Shown: in pieces, positions 1,361-59,909 of the stretch | Numbering within the stretch: the stretch's first letter is position 1 | How the letters are laid out: each line of letters opens with the position of its first letter | Program-made: the position numbers and the translations under genes | The notes under the pieces: model-generated | Database searches by the model: none | What the model was told of the DNA's origin: nothing | What the model saw: only the letters and a program-made list of their open reading frames with translations | Assembly: GCA_030650425.1 (NCBI GenBank) | Contig: JAUSED010000003.1 | Coordinates: 7,903-71,902 of the forward strand | Reading direction: 5' to 3' | Source: Candidatus Omnitrophota bacterium | GTDB lineage: Bacteria; Omnitrophota; Gorgyraeia; Gygaellales; Profunditerraquicolaceae | Length of the DNA stretch: 64,000 nucleotides

Positions 1361-1465
1361 CGAAACTGTTTCCAATCCGTGAAGGAAACTGTTTCCAAGT
1401 CAATCGGGAAACTGTTTCCGCTTTAGGTCGGAAACAGTTTCCCGATTAGAATGGAAACAGTTTCT
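1361..1465. repeat. REP array 1: five units of the 13-nt palindrome GGAAAC-N-GTTTCC, starting at 1361, 1384, 1407, 1430 and 1453.
   Basis: Read directly: cgaaactgtttcc / ggaaactgtttcc x2 / ggaaacagtttcc / ggaaacagtttct, with an exact 23-nt period. Linkers are aatccgtgaa, aagtcaatcg, gctttaggtc and cgattagaat. Confidence 0.9.
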
Positions 1466-7560: not shown

Positions 7561-10678
<3,118 letters not shown>

Positions 10679-10679
10679 T

Positions 10680-10784
10680 GGAAACTGTTTCCGGTCCAAA
10701 GCGGAAACAGTTTCCGTTTCAATCGGGAAACAGTTTCCCGATTAGCTTGGAAACAGTTTCCTTCACGAATTGGAAACAGTTTCC
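10680..10784. repeat. REP array 3: five units starting at 10680, 10703, 10726, 10749 and 10772. It begins 2 nt after the pilB/gspE stop.
   Basis: 23-nt phasing. Unit 3 plus its arms forms the 26-nt palindrome tcaatcGGGAAACAGTTTCCcgatta. Confidence 0.9.
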
Positions 10785-13966: not shown

Positions 13967-14041
13967 CGAAACTGTTTCCAATTTGTGAGGGAAACTGTTT
14001 CCATTCCAAAGCGGAAACTGTTTCCGAGTCAATCGGGAAAC
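13967..14041. repeat. REP array 4: three units at 13967, 13990 and 14013, plus a degenerate fourth at 14036.
   Basis: 23-nt phasing. Linkers are aatttgtgag, attccaaagc and gagtcaatcg. Confidence 0.85.
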
Positions 14042-16717: not shown

Positions 16718-16724
16718 TAAAAAT

Positions 16725-16760
16725 AAAGGGGACGGTTGGGACGGTTGTCCCCTTTATTTT
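16725..16760. terminator. Strong GC stem-loop aaaggggacggttgggacggttgtcccctttatttt, lying between divergent gene starts.
   Basis: 9-bp GGGGAC stem flanked by an A-run and a T-run, so it is symmetric. It sits upstream of both 16717(-) and 16780(+), which is odd for a terminator. Confidence 0.4.
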
Positions 16761-16779
16761 TGTATGATATAATTAAATT

Positions 16780-18399
16780 ATGATTGAACGATTACGAATT
16801 CCCATGCCACTGCGAAAATCGCCTAAAGTTACTGCTGGAGGCAATTTTCTTGATATTGAAGTTATTTGTTGGGTTATGCTCTTGCTAACTTTGTCAGTGG
16901 TGTTGATCGTGAGGCTGAGGCTGTTGGGGATTCCCCTTGAGCGGGATGAGGGAGAATACGCCTATCTCGGCCAGCTTTTATTGCAGGGCGTGCCTCCTTA
17001 TAAGCTCGCTTATAGTATGAAGCTTCCCGGCGCGTGCGCTGTTTACGCTTTGTTGATGGCGGTATTCGGGGAGACGATCAAGGGCATTCATTTAGGGTTC
17101 TTAATTATTAATTTCGCTTCAATTGCCTTAATATTTTTTATAGCTAAAAGATTATCCGGCACTCTAGCCGGAATTATTTCCGCAGCTGCTTACGCTGTTT
17201 TATCTGTTAGTCAATCAGTCCTCGGAGTCCAGGCGCATGCCACGCATTTAATAGTCTTGGCAGCCCTCTGCGGATCAATCTTACTTTTAAAAGCAGTTGA
17301 AAATGATCGAAAGAGTTTAATTTTCTTGAGCGGTTTATTTTTTGGGCTGGCCTTTCTGATGAAACAACAGGGAATATTTTTTATCCCCTTCGGCATCTTT
17401 TATCTTTCCTGGGCTTGCAAGAAACGATCTGTTTTAGCGGCTAATTTGATGGTTTATAGCTTGGGAGCGGCGTTACCTTTTGCACTAACCTGTTTAGTTC
17501 TTTTTTTTGCCGGCGTTTTCGATAAATTTTGGTTTTGGACGTTTCAATATGCATCCGGGTATTCTTCCGGCGCTCACGTTTATTTGGCGTTTCAAATTTT
17601 CAAAGCCCAATTGCTGGGGGCGATCAAACCATTTAAGCCGGTATGGTATATCGCGGCCGCGGGTTCTTTGTGCCTTTTTATCGACGCTAAAGTTAGAAAG
17701 AATATCTTTTTTGTCGCGGCTCTGTTGATTAGTTCTTTTCTGGCTCTCTGCCCGGGATTTATCTTCCGTGAGCATTATTTTGTGATGATATTGCCGGTAG
17801 TTTCTATATTATGCGGTATGTGCGTAAATTCGGCTGTTGAATTTATCAAGAATCGAAAATATCCGGCAGCTTTTCAATCCTTTCCGGTGATCATCTTTAC
17901 CGTTATTTTGGCGCTTTCTGTTTTTCAACAGAGGGATTACTTTTTTACAGCAACTCCGGAGAGGGTATCGCGGAAGGCTTACGCTGAAAATCCTTTTATC
18001 GAGTCCATCAGTATAGGAAATTACCTAAAAGCGCATTCATCTCCGGAGGATACGATCGCGGTATTGGGCTCAGAGCCCCAGATATATTTTTACGCGCGCA
18101 GGCGTTCGGCAACCGGCTATATTTATGCCTATCCTTTAATGGAAAACCAGCCTTATGCCTTAAAGATGCAGGAGGAGATGATTAGAGAAATCGAATTTCA
18201 AAAACCCCTCTACTTAGTTTTTGTCAAGGTTAACACTTCTTGGCTGCGGCACGGAGGTTCAGAAAATTTTATCTTCAGATGGGCCCAAAATTATATTACC
18301 GAGCATTACGATATTGCCGGGGCAACCTTTATTTCTAAGCAACCTTTTTCCTCTGTATTGGTCTATAAGCGAAAGGCGGAAACAGTTTCCAATTTGTGA
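16780..18399 (+). CDS. Polytopic membrane glycosyltransferase of the GT39/GT83 family (PMT/ArnT-like).
   Basis: About 12 TM helices in the N-terminal two-thirds and a soluble C-terminal domain. The last six codons and the stop (ETVSNL*) are supplied by REP array 5. Confidence 0.55.
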   Translation: MIERLRIPMPLRKSPKVTAGGNFLDIEVICWVMLLLTLSVVLIVRLRLLGIPLERDEGEYAYLGQLLLQGVPPYKLAYSMKLPGACAVYALLMAVFGETIKGIHLGFLIINFASIALIFFIAKRLSGTLAGIISAAAYAVLSVSQSVLGVQAHATHLIVLAALCGSILLLKAVENDRKSLIFLSGLFFGLAFLMKQQGIFFIPFGIFYLSWACKKRSVLAANLMVYSLGAALPFALTCLVLFFAGVFDKFWFWTFQYASGYSSGAHVYLAFQIFKAQLLGAIKPFKPVWYIAAAGSLCLFIDAKVRKNIFFVAALLISSFLALCPGFIFREHYFVMILPVVSILCGMCVNSAVEFIKNRKYPAAFQSFPVIIFTVILALSVFQQRDYFFTATPERVSRKAYAENPFIESISIGNYLKAHSSPEDTIAVLGSEPQIYFYARRRSATGYIYAYPLMENQPYALKMQEEMIREIEFQKPLYLVFVKVNTSWLRHGGSENFIFRWAQNYITEHYDIAGATFISKQPFSSVLVYKRKAETVSNL

Positions 18400-18459
18400 A
18401 GGAAACTGTTTCCATTCCGTGAAGGAAACTGTTTCCAGCCCAATTGGGAAACTGTCCCC
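18378..18459. repeat. REP array 5: three units at 18378, 18401 and 18424, plus a degenerate unit GGAAACTGTCCCC at 18447-18459 abutting the RAYT stop.
   Basis: 23-nt phasing. Linkers are aatttgtgaa, attccgtgaa and agcccaattg. Confidence 0.9.
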
Positions 18460-18941
18460 TAGAGCACGAGTTTATCTAGTAAAGCAAAATTATTTAAATA
18501 GGCTAGATTCCTTTCTGGATAACTGCTGAATTCATACTCTTTCATATTTTTGACTAAATTAGCCCGGATTGGATTCTGTTCTACATAAGCAATACAGTCT
18601 ATTAGGTATTGATCTCTAGCTATTACCTTTGCCTTGAATCTACCCTGCCACAAATGGCCTACCTTATTATATTTTTTGTTATAGTAAGCAGTGTATGATC
18701 GATGTAGGCCTTGCATAAAACTAGGAAGTTTACTCGGGTTTTTAGGCTCACCTATAATATGAATATGGTTTGGCATTAGGCAGTAACCGTACAGAAGCAG
18801 GGAGTGTTTTCTTTTGTAAAGCCTTAATTGGTGAAGATAAAATTCAAAATCTTCTTTACTTTTGAATATTAGTTGTTTTTGATTGCCTCTCGCATAGATA
18901 TGATAGCAGGCATTATTGATAAGTAATCGTGTTTTAGCCAT
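18459..18941 (-). CDS. REP-associated tyrosine transposase (RAYT, IS200/IS605-like Y1 HUH family).
   Basis: HUH motif CLMPNHIHII, catalytic Tyr region IAYVEQNPIRANLV, and GHLWQGRFK. At about 160 aa it is the typical size. Start set at ATG 18941, which has an AAGGAGG RBS 5 nt upstream on the minus strand. Confidence 0.8.
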   Translation of the reverse strand: MAKTRLLINNACYHIYARGNQKQLIFKSKEDFEFYLHQLRLYKRKHSLLLYGYCLMPNHIHIIGEPKNPSKLPSFMQGLHRSYTAYYNKKYNKVGHLWQGRFKAKVIARDQYLIDCIAYVEQNPIRANLVKNMKEYEFSSYPERNLAYLNNFALLDKLVL

Positions 18942-18954
18942 TTTTCCTCCTTTT

Positions 18955-19036
18955 AAGTCCACTTTCCCGATTGGCTCGGAAACAGTTTCCGCTTTGAGAT
19001 GGAAACAGTTTCCCGATTAGGATGGAAACTGTTTCC
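18955..19036. repeat. REP array 6: a degenerate unit at 18955 (gtccactttccc), then units at 18978, 19001 and 19024.
   Basis: 23-nt phasing. Linkers are cgattggctc, gctttgagat and cgattaggat. Confidence 0.9.
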
Positions 19037-19039
19037 ATA

Positions 19040-20566
19040 TTATAATCTCCTGTCTAGGCTTCTGTATTGCACTGCCTCTGAAATATGCTCAGCCAGAATA
19101 ACTTCCGACCCGGCTAGATCCGCGATAGTCCTGGAGATTTTAAGAATTTTATCAAATGCCCGGCCGGAAAATCCTAATTCCGTCATCGCTATTTTTAACA
19201 ATTCTTTTGCTTCATCTTCGAGGCCGCAATATTTTTTGATTAATTTGATGTTCATCCTTGCGTTATAAAAAATTCCGTCATTGGCAAAGCGCCTGTTTTG
19301 GATGGCGCGCGCTTTTTCTACCCTTGTTTTAATCACGGTTGAAGACTCGGCATCCTTTGTATCGACGAGCTCTTGATATTTTATGGAAGGCAGCTCGATA
19401 TGGATATCTATTCTGTCTAATAATGGCCCGGATATTTTACCCATATATCCGGCTATCTTATGCGGATTACAGCGGCAGGCGCGATAAGGGTCAGTGTAAT
19501 AGCCGCAGGGACAGGGATTCATCGCAGCGACTAAAACAAAAGAAGCAGGAAAGATAAGAGATTTGAATATGCGCGATACGCGTATGCAGCCGTCTTCCAA
19601 CGGTTGACGCAAGGCTTCAAGGCAGTCGCGCCGGAATTCCGGAAGTTCATCCAGAAAAAGCACGCCTTGATGCGCTAAGCTAATTTCTCCCGGAACAGGT
19701 ATGGAGCCGCCTCCGACCATAGCTATAGTGGAGATGGTGTGGTGAAGGGAGCGGAATGGCCGGGTGATCATAATTCCGTCTTTATTGAGCAGGGTTCCGG
19801 CCACCGAATGTATTTTACTTACTTCTAATGTCTCTTGCAGAGTCAGGTCTGGCATAATCGTGGGGATTCTTTTAGCGAGCATAGTTTTGCCGCTCCCCGG
19901 CGGCCCAATCATCAGGATGTTGTGGCCTCCAGCTACAGCTATCTCTAAAGCTCTTTTCGCCAGAAATTGCCCTTTGACTTCCGAGAAGTCCAGACCATAA
20001 CAATCCTTACTTTGGTATAGACTGAACAGATCTGGTTTAGAAGGCTTAAAGCCGGCGGGATTATTTAAGAACTCAACAGTTGCGCGCAGCGTTTTAAGCG
20101 CGAAGACAGAGACTCCGGGTACGATAGCCGCTTCCTTAGCGTTTTGCTCGGGGGTAATCAGCGAGCCAAAGCCGGATTTCAGGGTAGCCATCGCTATCGG
20201 GAGCATCCCCCGCACCGGCCTAAGCGTTCCGTCCAAAGAGAGTTCTCCCAAGACAAAATATCCGGATAACCCGCAGCTATTTATCTGCTCGGTTGCCGCC
20301 AGTATCCCTAAGGCAATCCCGAGGTCGAAACAAGCGCCTTCTTTTTTGATTCCTGACGGCGCAAGGCTGATGGTCACCCTTTCCGATGGCCAATTAAACC
20401 CAGAGTTTTTGATCGCTGACTTCACCCGTTCCTTGCTTTCTTTTACCGCGGAATCCGGCAGCCCGACTACATTTACTGCTGGCAGGCCTCTACAGACATC
20501 TACTTCGATCTCCACAGGGTATGCCTCTATGCCCTGTAATCCAAAACTTAATACTTTAGCTAGCAT
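19040..20566 (-). CDS. comM: Mg-chelatase-like AAA+ ATPase ComM/YifB.
   Basis: N-terminal LAKVLSFGLQGIEAYPVEIEVDV (Lon-like domain), Walker A GPPGSGKTMLAKR, and a C-terminal ChlI-type domain. Confidence 0.85.
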   Translation of the reverse strand: MLAKVLSFGLQGIEAYPVEIEVDVCRGLPAVNVVGLPDSAVKESKERVKSAIKNSGFNWPSERVTISLAPSGIKKEGACFDLGIALGILAATEQINSCGLSGYFVLGELSLDGTLRPVRGMLPIAMATLKSGFGSLITPEQNAKEAAIVPGVSVFALKTLRATVEFLNNPAGFKPSKPDLFSLYQSKDCYGLDFSEVKGQFLAKRALEIAVAGGHNILMIGPPGSGKTMLAKRIPTIMPDLTLQETLEVSKIHSVAGTLLNKDGIMITRPFRSLHHTISTIAMVGGGSIPVPGEISLAHQGVLFLDELPEFRRDCLEALRQPLEDGCIRVSRIFKSLIFPASFVLVAAMNPCPCGYYTDPYRACRCNPHKIAGYMGKISGPLLDRIDIHIELPSIKYQELVDTKDAESSTVIKTRVEKARAIQNRRFANDGIFYNARMNIKLIKKYCGLEDEAKELLKIAMTELGFSGRAFDKILKISRTIADLAGSEVILAEHISEAVQYRSLDRRL

Positions 20567-20641: not shown

Positions 20642-20672
20642 AGGTGACAGCCACAAAATACGTGACTGTCAC
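20642..20672. repeat. Family-3 palindromic element ggtgacagCcac-aaaatac-gtgactgtcacc, flanked by an A-run and a T-run.
   Basis: Same architecture as the 54756-54796 element inside comEC. It sits between divergent gene starts. Confidence 0.6.
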
Positions 20673-20695
20673 CTTTTTCCGGAGATGAGAAAAGG

Positions 20696-22573: not shown

Positions 22574-22590
22574 TATAAAGTAAAATAAAG

Positions 22591-22695
22591 GAAACAGTTT
22601 CCAATCTGTGAAGGAAACTGTTTCCGGCTCAATCGGGAAACAGTTTCCGCTTTGGGTCGGAAACAGTTTCCGCTTTGAGATGGAAACAGTTTCCA
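22591..22695. repeat. REP array 7: five units at 22591, 22614, 22637, 22660 and 22683, between ldt and accA.
   Basis: 23-nt phasing. Linkers are aatctgtgaa, ggctcaatcg, gctttgggtc and gctttgagat. Confidence 0.9.
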
Positions 22696-24171: not shown

Positions 24172-24173
24172 AA

Positions 24174-24201
24174 GAAAAAGTGACTGTCACTTTTTCTTTT
24201 T
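24174..24201. terminator. Perfect palindrome GAAAAAGTGAC-A-GTCACTTTTTC followed by a T-run. Candidate bidirectional intrinsic terminator.
   Basis: 11-bp perfect stem read directly. It shares the GTGACNGTCAC core with the family-3 elements. Confidence 0.55.
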
Positions 24202-27398: not shown

Positions 27399-27475
27399 CG
27401 AAACTGTTTCCATCTCAATCGGGAAACAGTTTCCGAGCCAATCGGGAAACTGTTTCCGAGCCAATCGGGAAAGTG
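27399..27475. repeat. REP array 8: units at 27399, 27422 and 27445, plus a degenerate unit at 27468, between the KS alpha and KS beta genes.
   Basis: 23-nt phasing. Linkers are atctcaatcg, gagccaatcg and gagccaatcg. Confidence 0.9.
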
Positions 27476-31336: not shown

Positions 31337-31367
31337 GAGGGACCGTTTCCTGAAAGGAAACGGTCCC
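31337..31367. terminator. Intra-cluster hairpin gagggaccgtttcc-tgaaa-ggaaacggtccctag.
   Basis: 13-bp stem with a 5-nt loop immediately after the cyclase stop. There is no T-run, so it is more likely an attenuator or processing structure than a terminator. Confidence 0.35.
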
Positions 31368-31386
31368 TAGATTCTAGGAGGCCATT

Positions 31387-44321: not shown

Positions 44322-44380
44322 GGAAACTGTTTCCAACTTGTGAAGGAAACTGTTTCCGGATCAATCGGGAAACAGTTTCC
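44322..44380. repeat. REP array 9: three units at 44322, 44345 and 44368.
   Basis: 23-nt phasing. Linkers are aacttgtgaa and ggatcaatcg. This is the last family-1 array in the window. Confidence 0.9.
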
Positions 44381-50463: not shown

Positions 50464-50530
50464 CACTAAAGCGAGCGTAAAAAATCGCGGCAAGCGGTTT
50501 AGCGAGCGTAGTGCCTTCGGTAAATTCTCC

Positions 50531-50561
50531 ATAAAGGGACGGATAATATCCGTCCCTTTAT
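50531..50561 (+). terminator. Hairpin ataaagggacggat-aat-atccgtccctttat.
   Basis: 14-bp perfect stem. It belongs to the GGGAC(G/C)G-stem hairpin class that recurs at 2233, 16725, 31337 and 53881. Confidence 0.5.
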
Positions 50562-50587
50562 GGTAGAACAGTTTTAGAGAAGAGTTA

Positions 50588-53877: not shown

Positions 53878-53880
53878 GAT

Positions 53881-53946
53881 AAATAGGGACAGCGCCAATT
53901 TTTTCAGTAAAAATATACGCAGAAAAAATGGGCGCTGTCCCTATTT
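53881..53946 (+). terminator. Long imperfect hairpin after leuS (aaatagggacagcgccaattttttc ... gaaaaaatgggcgctgtccctattt).
   Basis: About 25-bp interrupted stem, followed by T-rich sequence. Confidence 0.55.
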
Positions 53947-54016
53947 ATCTCTATTTATCTATTTATTTCAGTTAGATTCTGCCTCTCTCTGCGTCTATTA
54001 GGGTAGGAGGTGGGGA

Positions 54017-54346
54017 ATGCTTAATTTTACGCAGGAAGAGAGGAAGGTAATTTTGTTTCTGGTAATGCTGGCGTTCTTAGGGGCGGGGGTAAATTTTGCA
54101 GTTAAGCGGTTTGGCGGCGGGAAAAGCACTTTTTGTTTTGCTGATGATCTGGGGAAGGTGAATTTAAACAGCGCGGATAAAAGGCTGCTGATGAAAGTAT
54201 CTGGAATAGGGGAAAAGTTGGCTCAGCGTATCATCGATTATCGCGATAAAAGCCGCGGATTTAACGCCCTAGATGAGCTCAAGGAGATAGAGGGGATGAA
54301 CGACTCCAAATTTGCCAAATTAAAAGACTATCTAATGGTCAAATGA
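54017..54346 (+). CDS. comEA: ComEA-like competence protein with a helix-hairpin-helix DNA-binding domain.
   Basis: N-terminal TM helix. HhH motifs VNLNSADKRLLMKVSGIGEKLAQRII... Confidence 0.75.
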   Translation: MLNFTQEERKVILFLVMLAFLGAGVNFAVKRFGGGKSTFCFADDLGKVNLNSADKRLLMKVSGIGEKLAQRIIDYRDKSRGFNALDELKEIEGMNDSKFAKLKDYLMVK

Positions 54347-55761
54347 GCTGGCTGACTTTATATTTTTGCGCGGGGATAATTTTTGCGCATTTTTTTAAAG
54401 TTTATTTTTGGCCGCTTTATTCTCTCGGATTGGCCTTACTTGTTATCTGCACCATTTTTATCAAAAAAGATTTAATCTTCAAGAGATTCTCCTCTTGTTT
54501 AATTTTTATCTGCGGAGCAGTGTTGTTAACCAATACTTATATCCTGTCTAAAACTCATATCTCTAAATTTGTCTCCTATAAGAACGATACAGTTTTTACG
54601 GTTAAGGGATTTGTGAACAGCCAGCCGCAGTTAAAAGATAACCAGGTTTCATTTCTCTTGGCCGTGCAAGAATTGGAATTTAACCGCGCTCATTATAAAT
54701 CTTGCGGAGAGATTCTGGTTCATCTAAAAGAAATCAAAGAAGGGGAAGAAGGTCCCGAAGGTGACAGTCACGAAATGCGTGACTGTCACCTTCGGTACGG
54801 CGAGGCCTTAATCTTAAGAGGGACTATGCATAAGCCGTTTAAGTTATATAGTGACAGGATAGCTGCGATTATGCGGGTGAATATGCCCGGTTGCGTCATA
54901 AGATTAAATAGAAATTGTGGAAACCCCGTGCTTAGATTTGCCTATTTCCTTAAAGGAAAGATAGAGGAGGTAATTTATCAGAGGCTTTCTAAATTAGCCG
55001 CGGGCATCGCGAACGCCATGATTTTAGGAGAAGAGAGGGGTATCCCGGTTGCAGTTTATGACGCGATGGCCAAAAGCGGGACTGTGCATATCTTGGTGGT
55101 CAGCGGTTTTAATGTCGGAATAGTTGCCTTTATCATTATCTTGTTGTTTAAGGTCTTACGGGTTCCCCGCAAGCTTAGATATCTTCTAGCCATCCCTTGC
55201 CTAATAATATACTGCTTAGCTACAGGCGCTCAGGCTCCGGTGGCGCGCGCGACGATTATGGCGATATTTTTTCTCACGGGATTCCTTCTTAAAAGGGAGC
55301 CGGATATACGTAATTCTTTTTCTTTAGCCGCCCTCTTCATTCTTTTAATTAACCCGAGAGAAGTATTTTCCATCAGTTTCCAGCTTTCTTTTGCCAGCGT
55401 CGCGGCGATCATTTTTCTTGATCCTAAACTCAACGCGTTTTTTAAAACCGAATGCATAAAGCTGAAACTTTTAAGATTGATCACGGAAGGCGCCCTGGTA
55501 TCTCTATCTGCCTGGGTAGCTACTTTAGGGTTGATCGCTTATAATTTCAGGTTTCTCTCTCCGGTTACCGTATTAGCCAATATTTTTATTGTTCCTCTAG
55601 CCACTTTGATTACGCTCTCCGGATTTAGCTTGGTTATTATCTCCATAATTTTTCCTGTTTGGGCGGGATTCTTTGCTCGCGCCATCGAGTTCTTAGTGGT
55701 CGTACTTTTAAGCGTCAATAACCAGCTGGTTCAGTTCCCCTTGGCTTACCTACATTGGTAG
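54343..55761 (+). CDS. comEC: ComEC/Rec2-like DNA internalization channel, short form lacking the C-terminal metallo-beta-lactamase domain.
   Basis: N-terminal DUF4131-like OB region plus a multi-TM competence domain. The ORF ends before any MBL motif, 60 nt before the bamD-like gene. It contains a 41-nt perfect hairpin at 54756-54796. Confidence 0.65.
   Translation: MSWLTLYFCAGIIFAHFFKVYFWPLYSLGLALLVICTIFIKKDLIFKRFSSCLIFICGAVLLTNTYILSKTHISKFVSYKNDTVFTVKGFVNSQPQLKDNQVSFLLAVQELEFNRAHYKSCGEILVHLKEIKEGEEGPEGDSHEMRDCHLRYGEALILRGTMHKPFKLYSDRIAAIMRVNMPGCVIRLNRNCGNPVLRFAYFLKGKIEEVIYQRLSKLAAGIANAMILGEERGIPVAVYDAMAKSGTVHILVVSGFNVGIVAFIIILLFKVLRVPRKLRYLLAIPCLIIYCLATGAQAPVARATIMAIFFLTGFLLKREPDIRNSFSLAALFILLINPREVFSISFQLSFASVAAIIFLDPKLNAFFKTECIKLKLLRLITEGALVSLSAWVATLGLIAYNFRFLSPVTVLANIFIVPLATLITLSGFSLVIISIIFPVWAGFFARAIEFLVVVLLSVNNQLVQFPLAYLHW
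54756..54796. repeat. Intragenic family-3 palindromic element CCGAAGGTGACAGTCAC-gaaatgc-GTGACTGTCACCTTCGG, a perfect 17-bp stem.
   Basis: Read directly, inside the comEC coding sequence (encodes ..PEGDSHEMRDCHLRY..). The homologous copy is at 20642-20672. Confidence 0.85.
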
Positions 55762-59842: not shown

Positions 59843-59898
59843 GTAGGGGACACTTTCCTTTTGAAGTTCTAGTTAGAACCCTGACGGAAAGTGTCCCC
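59843..59898. repeat. Family-2 palindromic element copy C: AGGGGACACTTTCC - loop - GGAAAGTGTCCCCT, with the loop inverted relative to the 5165-5216 copy.
   Basis: The loop ttttgaagttctagttagaaccctgac is the reverse complement of the loop at 5178-5203, allowing 2 mismatches. Confidence 0.85.
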
Positions 59899-59909
59899 TT
59901 ACCCGAAAG

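What the first reader, a model, noticed from the sequence alone, without database searches (positions are those of the whole stretch)
54756..54796. Perfect 17-bp-stem hairpin (GTGAC-N-GTCAC family) embedded in the comEC coding sequence, with a sister copy in an intergenic region
CCGAAGGTGACAGTCAC-gaaatgc-GTGACTGTCACCTTCGG is a flawless inverted repeat inside an ORF, where selection on codons normally erodes such symmetry. A near-identical element, ggtgacagCcac-aaaatac-gtgactgtcacc, lies at 20642-20672 between divergent promoters. The 11-mer GTGACAGTCAC also forms the bidirectional terminator at 24174-24196. The element is 41 nt, not a multiple of 3, so it is either an insertion absorbed with a compensating indel or a structure maintained for a function such as ribosome pausing, RNase processing or a DNA-level protein site. 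The comEC gene is the short form without the MBL nuclease domain, so it may already be a decaying or re-purposed gene.
Basis: seen in the sequence. Interest (0 to 1): 0.6.

Follow-up and report, generated by a model that had tools for sequence, protein, structure and literature searches.

The report
Mobile palindromic repeat inserted inside comEC
The perfect hairpin inside the DNA-uptake gene comEC is a copy of a small selfish palindromic repeat (a REP-type element) that landed in frame in a floppy surface loop of the protein and is tolerated there, which has been described before in other bacteria.

Summary
The hairpin is real, at 54755-54795 (one base off the stated coordinates). It has a 17-18 bp perfect stem and is the only long perfect hairpin in the window that lies inside a gene.

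It sits in a 48-nt, 16-codon in-frame insertion that none of the other 119 ComEC homologues collected from Omnitrophota-type assemblies carries. An AlphaFold model puts the insertion in the only disordered loop of the N-terminal beta-barrel domain. comEC is otherwise intact: dN/dS is 0.21-0.24, as in its orthologues, and the short form without an MBL domain is normal for this clade.

The 31-nt core (two GTGAC-W-GTCAC units, 18-nt period) recurs at 20643-20673, and a single unit lies at 24180-24190. Relatives lack a hairpin at the two matching intergenic sites.

Other genomes link the same doublet to a transposase. It directly flanks REP-associated tyrosine transposase (RAYT) genes in two Chloroflexota genomes and one Omnitrophota genome. 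It is also inserted in frame in gatA of another Omnitrophota genome.

The window has its own RAYT (18459-18941, minus strand). That gene is flanked by a sister repeat family, GGAAAC-W-GTTTCC, in 23-nt phased arrays (35 units).

Verdict: an intragenic REP/REPIN-like insertion, a new member of a known kind (Di Nocera 2013). I found no evidence for a regulatory role or for gene decay.

The parts
54755..54795 (.). Perfect inverted repeat: 17-nt arms with a 7-nt spacer, which folds as an 18-bp stem with a 5-nt loop. It consists of two GTGAC-W-GTCAC units at 54761-54771 and 54779-54789 (18-nt period) plus the outer arms CCGAAG / CTTCGG.
54740..54787 (+). 48-nt in-frame insertion as aligned to three orthologous genes; the boundaries are ambiguous by a few nt. 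It encodes about residues 133-149 (EGEEGPEGDSHEMRDCH) and replaces a single G/D codon. The right outer arm CTTCGG lines up with the host L-R codons.
   Evidence: pLDDT is below 50 only at residues 132-147.
54343..55761 (+). comEC, 472 aa, DUF4131 plus Competence domains. It is intact and under purifying selection.
20643..20673 (.). Sister doublet GGTGACAGCCAC-AAAATAC-GTGACTGTCACC, 28 of 31 nt identical to the comEC copy and flanked by A6/T5. It lies in the divergent intergenic region upstream of comM. The orthologous site in three relatives has no such hairpin.
24172..24198 (.). Single GTGACTGTCAC unit (24180-24190) with complementary A/T-rich flanks, just after the PadR stop codon. The orthologous site in three relatives has no such hairpin.
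18459..18941 (-). REP-associated tyrosine transposase (RAYT), 160 aa, with the HUH motif NHIHI and the catalytic Tyr. It is single copy and syntenic downstream of comM in relatives. It is the cognate of the GGAAAC repeat family, not demonstrably of the GTGAC family.
18378..18462 (.). GGAAAC-W-GTTTCC array forming the left inverted flank of the RAYT gene.
18960..19036 (.). GGAAAC-W-GTTTCC array forming the right inverted flank of the RAYT gene, between RAYT and comM.
19040..20566 (-). comM (Mg-chelatase-like competence helicase). RAYT lies immediately downstream of it in this window and in L207, L208, L209 and L012.

Best explanation
The hairpin is a copy of a REP-type palindromic repeat: a doublet of two 11-13-nt odd palindromes, (G)GTGAC-W-GTCAC(C), that pair into one long hairpin, as in a REPIN.

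REP-associated tyrosine transposases (RAYTs, HUH/Y1 enzymes of the IS200 superfamily) bind and cleave REP hairpins in single-stranded DNA in vitro (E. coli RAYT; cited in PMC3733652 and PMC5581495). They are thought to spread these repeats around the genome.

One copy, together with about 7-17 nt of extra sequence, entered comEC. It survived for three reasons: the total length is 48 nt, the element has no stop codon in that frame, and the site is a disordered, insertion-tolerant loop between two beta strands of the N-terminal OB-fold-like (DUF4131) domain. ComEC therefore stays functional and carries a 16-residue acidic loop.

The very stable mRNA and DNA hairpin is a passenger, not a selected regulatory device.

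Shown: the insertion, its position in the protein, its membership of a dispersed repeat family, the absence of family copies at orthologous sites, the RAYT association of this repeat type in other genomes, and a RAYT/REP system in this window.

Inferred: that a RAYT moved it, which RAYT did so, that it is selectively neutral, and that it is fairly young. For the age, if all 34 stem positions were neutral, a perfect stem would be expected only below about 0.09 substitutions per site, while dS to the nearest orthologue is about 0.6.
For: 1. Lineage-specific insertion. Only 1 of 120 ComEC homologues has it. The DNA alignment shows exactly 48 extra nt.
2. Tolerant site. The only segment of the model with pLDDT below 50 is residues 132-147, between strands 123-129 and 154-163. 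Nine to ten distant homologues carry an unrelated insertion of about 10 aa in the same loop.
3. The gene is healthy. dN/dS is 0.21-0.24.
4. Repeat family. There are three loci in 64 kb with 90% identity over the 31-nt core, including the loop. Relatives L207-L209 lack hairpins at the two orthologous intergenic sites.
5. RAYT association. RAYT genes are flanked on both sides by GTGACNGTCAC units in L039 and L005 (Chloroflexota) and in L012 (Omnitrophota).
6. This genome runs a RAYT/REP system. The window's Y1 protein hits NCBIfam NF047646, 'REP-associated tyrosine transposase' (80.3 bits, cut-off 80). It has the HUH and Tyr motifs. It is flanked by inverted GGAAAC-W-GTTTCC arrays. The same repeat flanks its orthologues in three other genomes.
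7. An independent precedent in the same phylum. The same core is inserted in frame, as 12 aa, in gatA of Omnitrophica RIFOXYB12_FULL_50_7.
8. Published precedent. Intragenic in-frame REPs and REP dimers, many of them in DNA-metabolism genes, are described in PMC3733652.
Against: - The RAYT in this window is flanked by the GGAAAC family, not the GTGAC family. In three relatives its orthologues have GAAACnGTTTC flanks and no GTGAC units within 20 kb. The enzyme that would move the GTGAC element in this genome has therefore not been identified.
- Only about 64 of at least 359 kb of the contig could be read, so the genome-wide copy number is unknown.
- The canonical GTAG or CGTC terminal tag of published REP super-families is absent.
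- A scan of 80 metagenomic RAYT loci found no further GTGAC-flanked RAYT.
- The insertion is 48 nt while the shared core is 31 nt. The origin of the extra bases is unexplained, including three GAAGGnnnn units at a 9-nt period on the left side.
- A perfect stem could also reflect selection for the structure.
Confidence: 0.75

Rival explanations
1. The hairpin is kept by selection for a function inside comEC. At the RNA level this could be ribosome pausing for membrane insertion, an RNase III or RNase E processing site, or transcript stabilisation. At the DNA level the two GTGAC-N-GTCAC palindromes could be operators for a dimeric regulator, perhaps one tied to competence.
For: The stem is flawless, 18 bp and -37 kcal/mol, whereas the sister copy has a mismatch. 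Two of the three GTGAC loci in the window touch competence genes: one is inside comEC and one is upstream of comM. The single unit lies next to a PadR regulator gene. Each unit is a perfect palindrome of the kind that homodimeric DNA-binding proteins recognise.
Against: The hairpin is absent from 119 of 120 homologues, so ComEC does not need it. The comM and PadR sites are empty in three relatives with the same gene order. The same core flanks RAYT genes and is scattered in unrelated contexts in over 120 loci from other genomes. No U-run follows the stem, so it is not an intrinsic terminator. The proximity to comM is explained by the conserved comM-RAYT synteny.
Confidence: 0.1
2. The palindrome was made locally without transposition, for example by intrastrand template switching, fold-back priming or replication slippage that extended a short quasi-palindrome. 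Its likeness to the other copies would then come from gene conversion or from a shared sequence bias.
For: The outer arms differ between copies but are always complementary: CCGAA/TTCGG here and AAAAA/TTTTT at 20643. The right outer arm coincides with host codons L-R. Three GAAGGnnnn units at a 9-nt period on the left side (encoding EGE-EGP-EGD) look like slippage products.
Against: Local template switching does not explain a 31-nt core that is 90% identical, loop included, to a copy 34 kb away. It also does not explain why the same core occurs next to RAYT genes elsewhere. The orthologues have no seed palindrome at the site.
Confidence: 0.08
3. It is an assembly or binning artefact, such as a chimeric join or a palindromic mis-assembly, and not part of the real gene.
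For: The window comes from a metagenome-assembled genome. Palindromes break de Bruijn graphs: the Logan contigs end inside this hairpin and inside the one at 59845-59899.
Against: Two Logan contigs assembled separately from run SRR13727527 read from each flank into the hairpin with 100% identity and overlap by 25 nt. The insertion keeps the reading frame, and the flanking comEC sequence is collinear with the orthologues.
Confidence: 0.02
4. The GTGAC-N-GTCAC motif is a DNA uptake signal sequence of a naturally competent organism, over-represented genome-wide and often found as inverted pairs.
For: The organism encodes ComEA, ComEC and ComM. In Neisseria, uptake sequences often occur as inverted pairs in terminators (from my own knowledge, not tested here).
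Against: There are only four exact units in 64 kb, far fewer than uptake sequences usually reach. The motif is shared with Chloroflexota and flanks RAYT genes. The abundant motif in this window is a different one, confined to phased intergenic arrays.
Confidence: 0.03

Closest known systems
Intragenic REP elements and REP dimers (Di Nocera et al. 2013, PMC3733652), for example in Opitutus terrae, Thauera and Stenotrophomonas
   Same: Short palindromic repeats that are normally extragenic but are occasionally found in frame inside known genes, often as dimers that add a short peptide. Many of the published cases are in DNA-metabolism genes. They are inferred to be tolerated in loops or linkers and are associated with RAYT genes (REPtrons).
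   Different: There is no GTAG or CGTC terminal tag. The units are perfect odd palindromes (5-6 nt, N, 5-6 nt) spaced at a strict 18-nt period. The host phylum, Omnitrophota, is not covered in that survey. The cognate RAYT in this genome was not found.
REPIN-RAYT systems (Bertels and Rainey 2011, PMC3116915; Bertels et al. 2017, PMC5581495)
   Same: A doublet of inverted REPs forms one hairpin. There is a single-copy, vertically inherited RAYT flanked by the repeats; here that gene is syntenic downstream of comM in at least four Omnitrophota genomes. The repeat population has expanded in one lineage.
   Different: The doublet is much shorter (31-41 nt, spacer 7 nt) than typical REPINs. REPINs are described as extragenic. 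The GTGAC core is shared between RAYTs that are only 22-33% identical and between two phyla.
Rickettsia palindromic elements (RPEs)
   Same: It works like an RPE: a selfish palindromic repeat inserted in frame into conserved protein-coding genes, giving an extra surface segment without destroying the protein.
   Different: RPEs are about 100-150 bp, are restricted to Rickettsia, and have no dedicated transposase known (CGTC-tagged according to PMC3733652). There is no sequence relationship.
IS200/IS605 subterminal hairpins and their Y1 transposase TnpA
   Same: The same enzyme superfamily (Pfam Y1_Tnp). Recognition is of DNA hairpins in single strands.
   Different: The repeat here is not the end of an insertion sequence. 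The transposase gene is single copy and syntenic rather than multi-copy.

Membership tests
REP / REPIN repeat (RAYT-associated) | Short palindromic unit able to form a stem-loop, with units paired in inverted orientation into a larger hairpin | tested here: met
   Two 11-nt palindromes 18 nt apart form an 18-bp stem, z = -7.6.
REP / REPIN repeat (RAYT-associated) | Repeated and dispersed in the genome, mostly extragenic | tested here: inconclusive
   Three loci with 4 exact units (5 with one mismatch) in 64 kb, against 0.02 exact units expected; two of the three loci are intergenic. The rest of the genome could not be read. Nine loci from other Omnitrophota genomes are mostly intergenic.
REP / REPIN repeat (RAYT-associated) | A RAYT gene flanked by the same repeat (REPtron) | tested here: inconclusive
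   Met in other genomes: L039, L005 and L012 have a RAYT homologue with GTGACNGTCAC units on both sides. Not met in this window: its RAYT is flanked by GGAAAC-W-GTTTCC.
REP / REPIN repeat (RAYT-associated) | Conserved terminal tetranucleotide GTAG (or CGTC) at one end of the unit | tested here: not met
   The flanks are ccgaaG, aaaaaG and gaaaaa. Chloroflexota copies are mostly preceded by NNAG. A GTGAR motif precedes some GGAAAC units, but that is not the published tag.
REP / REPIN repeat (RAYT-associated) | Presence/absence differences at orthologous sites (mobility) | tested here: met
   The comEC site is empty in 119 of 120 homologues. The sites upstream of comM and downstream of PadR are empty in L207-L209.
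REP / REPIN repeat (RAYT-associated) | Cleavage and joining of the single-stranded hairpin by the RAYT | not testable with these tools
   This needs biochemistry.
RAYT (NCBIfam NF047646), for the window protein 18459-18941 (minus strand) | Y1/HUH transposase fold scoring above the family cut-off, with HUH and catalytic Tyr present | tested here: met
   Pfam PF01797, E = 4.6e-11. NF047646 at 80.3 bits against a cut-off of 80, which is borderline. NHIHI and Y..NP are conserved.
RAYT (NCBIfam NF047646), for the window protein 18459-18941 (minus strand) | Single copy, vertically inherited, flanked by abundant repeats | tested here: met
   Orthologues at 57-87% identity are found across Omnitrophota. 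L207-L209 show the same PadR-accA-YkuD-DUF212-comM-RAYT order. The same repeat flanks the gene in those loci. The window holds 35 units of it.
Rickettsia palindromic elements | Element of about 100-150 bp belonging to the RPE families of Rickettsia | tested here: not met
   The element is 41-48 nt and the host is Omnitrophota. The RPE size is taken from PMC10969869.
Intrinsic (Rho-independent) terminator | GC-rich hairpin followed directly by a U-run | tested here: not met
   The stem is followed by TACGGCGAGG on the plus strand and by GACCTTCTTCC on the minus strand. It is not listed as a full hairpin by the scan.
Known structured RNA family (Rfam) | Match to a covariance model at the gathering score | tested here: not met
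   Only tRNAs reach the gathering score in the window. Around the hairpin there are only weak, generic miRNA-like hairpin hits, at 22 bits or less.
Functional ComEC (DUF4131 plus Competence domains) | Full-length ORF with both domains, conserved residues and purifying selection | tested here: met
   PF13567 plus PF03772. All 70 invariant columns are kept. dN/dS is 0.21-0.24. Mean pLDDT is 80.

The most novel reading that the evidence does not exclude
The GTGAC-W-GTCAC and GGAAAC-W-GTTTCC repeats (common frame GG..AC-W-GT..CC) may define an undescribed REP super-family that lacks the GTAG tag.

Its features would be:
- perfect odd palindromes laid out at strict 18- or 23-nt phase;
- a comM-linked, vertically inherited RAYT in Omnitrophota;
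- the same 11-nt core shared with hundreds of Chloroflexota copies, even though the associated RAYTs are only 22-33% identical.

That sharing would imply either inter-phylum transfer of REP/RAYT systems or a strong common constraint on what these enzymes can recognise.

Its members repeatedly enter essential genes in frame (comEC here, gatA in another genome). The family could therefore be a steady source of new surface loops in the proteins of uncultured phyla.
Probability: 0.3. Interest if true: 0.5.

Novelty: new member of a known kind. Interest (0 to 1): 0.35.

Why it matters
It explains an odd-looking feature in ordinary terms. It also corrects two misreadings: the gene is not decaying, and no regulatory hairpin needs to be invoked.

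It documents a RAYT/REP system in Omnitrophota, an uncultured phylum for which the paper search found no description of RAYT/REP systems. It adds two clean examples (comEC and gatA) of REP doublets carried in frame inside conserved genes.

For annotation, such hairpins break short-read assemblies, so genes that carry them are split in metagenome assemblies. The two Logan contigs that end inside this hairpin show the effect.

For REP biology, a palindrome core shared between two phyla and between distant RAYTs could help define what these transposases recognise. So could a lineage in which one REP type has expanded (35 units in 64 kb against 3-5 in 20 kb in relatives).

Tried and rejected
- Rfam. 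No family matches. The full-window gathering scan gave only two tRNAs. A permissive scan around the hairpin, and one of a Chloroflexota locus, gave only generic hairpin hits.
- Literature search for the literal motifs. It returned only unrelated primer or shRNA hits.
- Intrinsic terminator reading for the comEC copy. Rejected because no U-run follows the stem.
- Metagenome scan with a RAYT alignment, meant to collect more GTGAC-flanked RAYTs. It returned 80 loci, none with GTGAC flanks. About ten have other 5-N-5 palindromes on both sides, such as GGGACnGTCCC and GGGTCnGACCC. It neither supports nor refutes the GTGAC association.
- Stop-to-stop ORF test on the genome-scan hits. Most apparent 'coding' hits lie at ORF ends or in spurious high-GC ORFs. 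I kept only gatA (L114), and probably a DNA methylase (L015), as real in-frame cases.
- Attempts to read more of this genome or to find empty-site alleles. ComEC itself and one flanking gene are not on record in the contig index. No near-identical ComEC without the insertion exists in the protein database; the closest is 75-78% identical.
- Viral contigs. Three GTGAC hits and no GGAAAC hits, so there is no sign of a phage vector.
- I looked for a target-site duplication around the insertion and found none that was convincing.
Full report
**Observation**

The inverted repeat CCGAAGGTGACAGTCAC / GTGACTGTCACCTTCGG, with the 7-nt spacer GAAATGC, is present at 54755-54795. That is one base left of the stated coordinates. 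As RNA it folds into an 18-bp stem with a 5-nt loop, on either strand, at -37 and -36 kcal/mol, z about -8 against dinucleotide shuffles.

The window holds seven perfect hairpins with arms of at least 14 nt and loops of 3-10 nt, against 0.03 per shuffled window. This one has the second-longest arm and is the only one inside a long ORF.

The 11-mer GTGACNGTCAC occurs four times against 0.02 expected. The 31-nt doublet occurs twice against none expected. The sister copy is at 20643-20673, with one stem mismatch and the loop AAAATAC. A single unit lies at 24180-24190 between complementary A/T-rich flanks.

Two contigs assembled separately from run SRR13727527 are 100% identical to the window. One stops at 54787 and the other starts at 54763, symmetric about the hairpin centre, as expected when a de Bruijn graph meets a perfect palindrome. 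Both junctions are therefore confirmed by a second assembly.

**It is an insertion**

The window comes from a Candidatus Omnitrophota MAG. Its ComEC is 472 aa, while the nearest homologues (59-78% identity) are 456-460 aa. In an alignment of 26 sequences, the window protein alone has 16 extra residues. The sequence K-EGEEGPEGDSHEMRDCH-LRYGEAL replaces K-[G/D]-L[S/A]YGEAL. Across all 120 collected homologues, 108 have the short loop and only the window protein has this insertion.

A DNA alignment with three orthologous genes shows exactly 48 extra nucleotides, 54740-54787 as aligned. The right outer arm CTTCGG falls on the host L-R codons. So the 41-nt hairpin is not itself a multiple of three, but the inserted DNA is.

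**Where it sits in the protein, and the state of the gene**

An AlphaFold model built from the alignment has mean pLDDT 80 and pTM 0.74. Its single segment below pLDDT 50 is residues 132-147, which is the insertion. That segment lies between beta strands 123-129 and 154-163 of the N-terminal beta-rich domain, which Pfam calls DUF4131. I recall this domain being described as OB-fold-like; I did not test that here.

Nine to ten more distant homologues carry an unrelated insertion of about 10 residues in the same loop, so the site tolerates insertions.

The gene is not decaying. It keeps all 70 invariant alignment columns. Its dN/dS against three orthologues is 0.18-0.24, the same as among those orthologues (0.18-0.20). 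The short form without an MBL domain is the rule for all listed homologues.

**What the element is**

Three lines of evidence point to a REP-type repeat.

*1. The window encodes a REP-associated tyrosine transposase.* The gene is at 18459-18941 on the minus strand.
- It hits Pfam Y1_Tnp and NCBIfam NF047646 'REP-associated tyrosine transposase' at 80.3 bits, cut-off 80.
- The HUH motif and the catalytic tyrosine are present.
- It is flanked on both sides by inverted arrays of a 13-nt odd palindrome, GGAAAC-W-GTTTCC. That palindrome occurs 35 times in the window in nine intergenic arrays with a strict 23-nt period.
- Orthologues of this RAYT (57-87% identity, about 160 aa) are common in Omnitrophota.
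- In three genomes they sit in the same PadR-accA-YkuD-DUF212-comM-RAYT neighbourhood. There they are again flanked by GAAACnGTTTC units.
- This matches the published picture of a single-copy, vertically inherited RAYT with its REP population (PMC5581495).

*2. The GTGAC palindrome has the same frame as the GGAAAC one.* Compare GGTGAC-A-GTCACC with GGAAAC-A-GTTTCC. Elsewhere the GTGAC type is itself RAYT-associated.
About 104 are Chloroflexota, 9 are Omnitrophota loci from 8 genomes, and a few come from other phyla.
- RAYT homologues lie directly between GTGACNGTCAC units in L039 and L005 (Chloroflexota) and in L012 (Omnitrophota STC_70).
- In L012 the order is comM, GTGAC doublets, RAYT, which is the same position as in the window.

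*3. The copies behave as mobile DNA.*
- The two intergenic sites that hold GTGAC copies in the window (upstream of comM, downstream of PadR) contain no such hairpin in the three syntenic relatives.
- In another Omnitrophota genome (RIFOXYB12_FULL_50_7, L114) the same core lies inside gatA. There it forms a 12-residue in-frame insertion relative to solved GatA structures.

The motif has a TGA in one frame only, on either strand. Two of three frames are therefore open, and the 18-nt period keeps both units in the same frame.

**Mechanism proposed**

A REP/REPIN-like doublet was copied into comEC. By analogy with E. coli RAYT acting on REP single strands (cited in PMC3733652 and PMC5581495), the agent was presumably a RAYT acting on single-stranded DNA.

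Only an in-frame, stop-free event in a tolerant loop could persist in a gene under purifying selection, and this event meets all three conditions. The hairpin in the mRNA and DNA is then a by-product.

The perfect stem suggests a fairly recent event. If all 34 stem positions were neutral, no change would be expected only below about 0.09 substitutions per site, whereas dS to the nearest orthologue is about 0.6. This is an inference.

**What does not fit or stays open**

- The RAYT in the window belongs to the GGAAAC family. Its orthologues carry no GTGAC units nearby. The enzyme for the GTGAC copies in this genome is therefore unknown: it may lie outside the window, be lost, or be the same enzyme acting on a near-cognate site.
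- The published GTAG and CGTC tags are absent.
- A metagenome scan with a RAYT alignment returned 80 loci, none GTGAC-flanked, although several have other 5-N-5 palindromes on both sides.
- The shared core is 31 nt but 48 nt were gained. The left side carries three GAAGGnnnn units at a 9-nt period (encoding EGE-EGP-EGD) that look like slippage.
- The outer arms differ between copies yet are always complementary. This leaves some room for a template-switching component.

**Rivals**

- *A selected RNA or DNA function in comEC.* The flawless stem, and the fact that two of the three copies touch competence genes, make this conceivable. Against it: the hairpin is absent in all orthologues, the sites are empty in relatives, it is associated with RAYT genes, and comM-RAYT synteny accounts for the comM link. 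I give it 0.1.
- *Local palindrome formation without transposition.* 0.08.
- *DNA uptake sequence.* 0.03.
- *Assembly artefact.* 0.02, given the second assembly.

**Comparison with what is known**

Di Nocera et al. 2013 (PMC3733652) already report REPs and REP dimers entirely inside known genes. More than half of those inserts are dimers or groups that encode 20-30 residues. Many are in replication and repair genes, with the highest GTAG count in Opitutus terrae. The authors argue that such inserts may be neutral because they lie in loops or linkers. Rickettsia palindromic elements are the classic in-frame case.

The present element works like these. It passes most REP/REPIN criteria but fails the terminal-tag criterion, and it lacks a demonstrated cognate RAYT in this genome. 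I therefore file it as a REP-like element rather than as a member of a named REP family.

**Novelty and score**

For the finding as given: a new member of a known kind, interest 0.35.

The more novel reading is a tag-less, phased, odd-palindrome REP super-family shared by Omnitrophota and Chloroflexota, with a comM-linked RAYT, that repeatedly enters essential genes. It is not excluded. I give it probability about 0.3 and interest 0.5 if true.

Noticed in passing
window 1361-1465, 7563-7667, 10680-10784, 13967-14025, 18378-18436, 18978-19036, 22590-22694, 27399-27457, 44322-44380: There are nine intergenic arrays of the 13-nt palindrome GGAAAC-W-GTTTCC with a strict 23-nt period: 35 units, 3-5 per array. 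They start within a few bases of the upstream stop codon. The 10-nt spacers come from three recurring classes (AAYYYGTGAR, NNNYYAATCG, GCTTTGRRNN) and occur in both orientations. Relatives have only 3-5 units per 20 kb, mostly next to the RAYT gene, so this lineage shows an expansion.
   Followed up: partly
window 18459-20566; L207, L208, L209 around 8400-10500; L012 19-1860: RAYT lies immediately downstream of comM in at least five Omnitrophota genomes. In four of them it is the 160-aa type flanked by GGAAAC repeats. In STC_70 (L012) a 205-aa RAYT that is only 33% identical, flanked by GTGAC repeats, occupies the same position.
   Followed up: partly
L114 5010-5036 (Omnitrophica RIFOXYB12_FULL_50_7): A GTGACTGTCAC-CAACA-GTGACAGTCAC doublet lies inside gatA. 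It forms a 12-residue in-frame insertion (KVTVTNSDSHQG) between PCGF and LPIGLQ, relative to solved GatA structures.
   Followed up: yes
L015 2426-2455 (Candidatus Caldilinea saccharophila): The doublet appears to sit in frame inside an N6 DNA methylase-like ORF of about 890 aa (…TPREIVDYMVDEAL…VTEQ[VTVTSKSDSHL]KPRL…). I did not check it against homologues.
   Followed up: no
L004-L123 (genome scan hits): In Chloroflexota, 98 of 112 doublets have the A..T arrangement (a perfect hairpin with A on the 5' arm) and only 12 have T..A, although both would pair equally well. The spacer is 7-8 nt, often self-complementary around UUCG-like or GAAA-like centres, and the flanks are usually AG…CT. In Omnitrophota genomes, 8 of 10 doublets are A..A or T..T.
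   Followed up: partly
window 54763-54787 and 59848-59868; L204, L205, L206: Logan contigs of run SRR13727527 break exactly inside perfect palindromes: the comEC hairpin and the hairpin at 59845-59899. Genes carrying such repeats are therefore split in short-read assemblies, and their products are missing from protein catalogues.
   Followed up: yes
P0047, P0057, P0059, P0062, P0072, P0093, P0096, P0103, P0117 (ComEC homologues): A clade of more distant ComEC proteins has an unrelated insertion of about 10 residues (for example KKDLPGALAQIQ) in the same loop as the window's insertion. Its DNA was not examined.
   Followed up: no
window 54739-54765: The left edge of the insertion consists of three units at a 9-nt period, GAAGGGGAA / GAAGGTCCC / GAAGGTGAC (peptide EGE-EGP-EGD). 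This may be slippage that brought the insertion into frame.
   Followed up: no
window 53878-53949: A 72-nt hairpin with 28-nt arms (96% complementary, 16-nt spacer) fills the leuS-comEA intergenic region. It contains GGGACAGCGCC. Other intergenic hairpins are built on GGGAC/GTCCC or mixed GGGAC-N-GTTTCC arms (16719-16761, 31338-31368, 50529-50563, 59845-59899).
   Followed up: no
L071 5203-5345 and 6710-7999 (Omnitrophota RA.bin19): A 35-residue duplicate of the comM 3' end lies about 1.4 kb downstream of the intact comM and next to a GTGAC doublet. This suggests an insertion into the comM 3' end.
   Followed up: no
L144, L145, L141, L171, L125, L162, L182, L187: Metagenomic RAYT homologues are flanked on both sides by other 5-N-5 odd palindromes (GGGACnGTCCC, GGGTCnGACCC, GGACGnCGTCC, ACCTCnGAGGT, CCTCCnGGAGG, AGGACnGTCCT). 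Odd-palindrome REPs may be a wider class.
   Followed up: no
window 1-64000: GC skew is positive in every 4-kb block, and almost all genes are on the plus strand. Both GTGAC doublets have their A-rich loop (RAAATRC) on the plus strand, that is, the same polarity with respect to the likely leading strand (n = 2).
   Followed up: no
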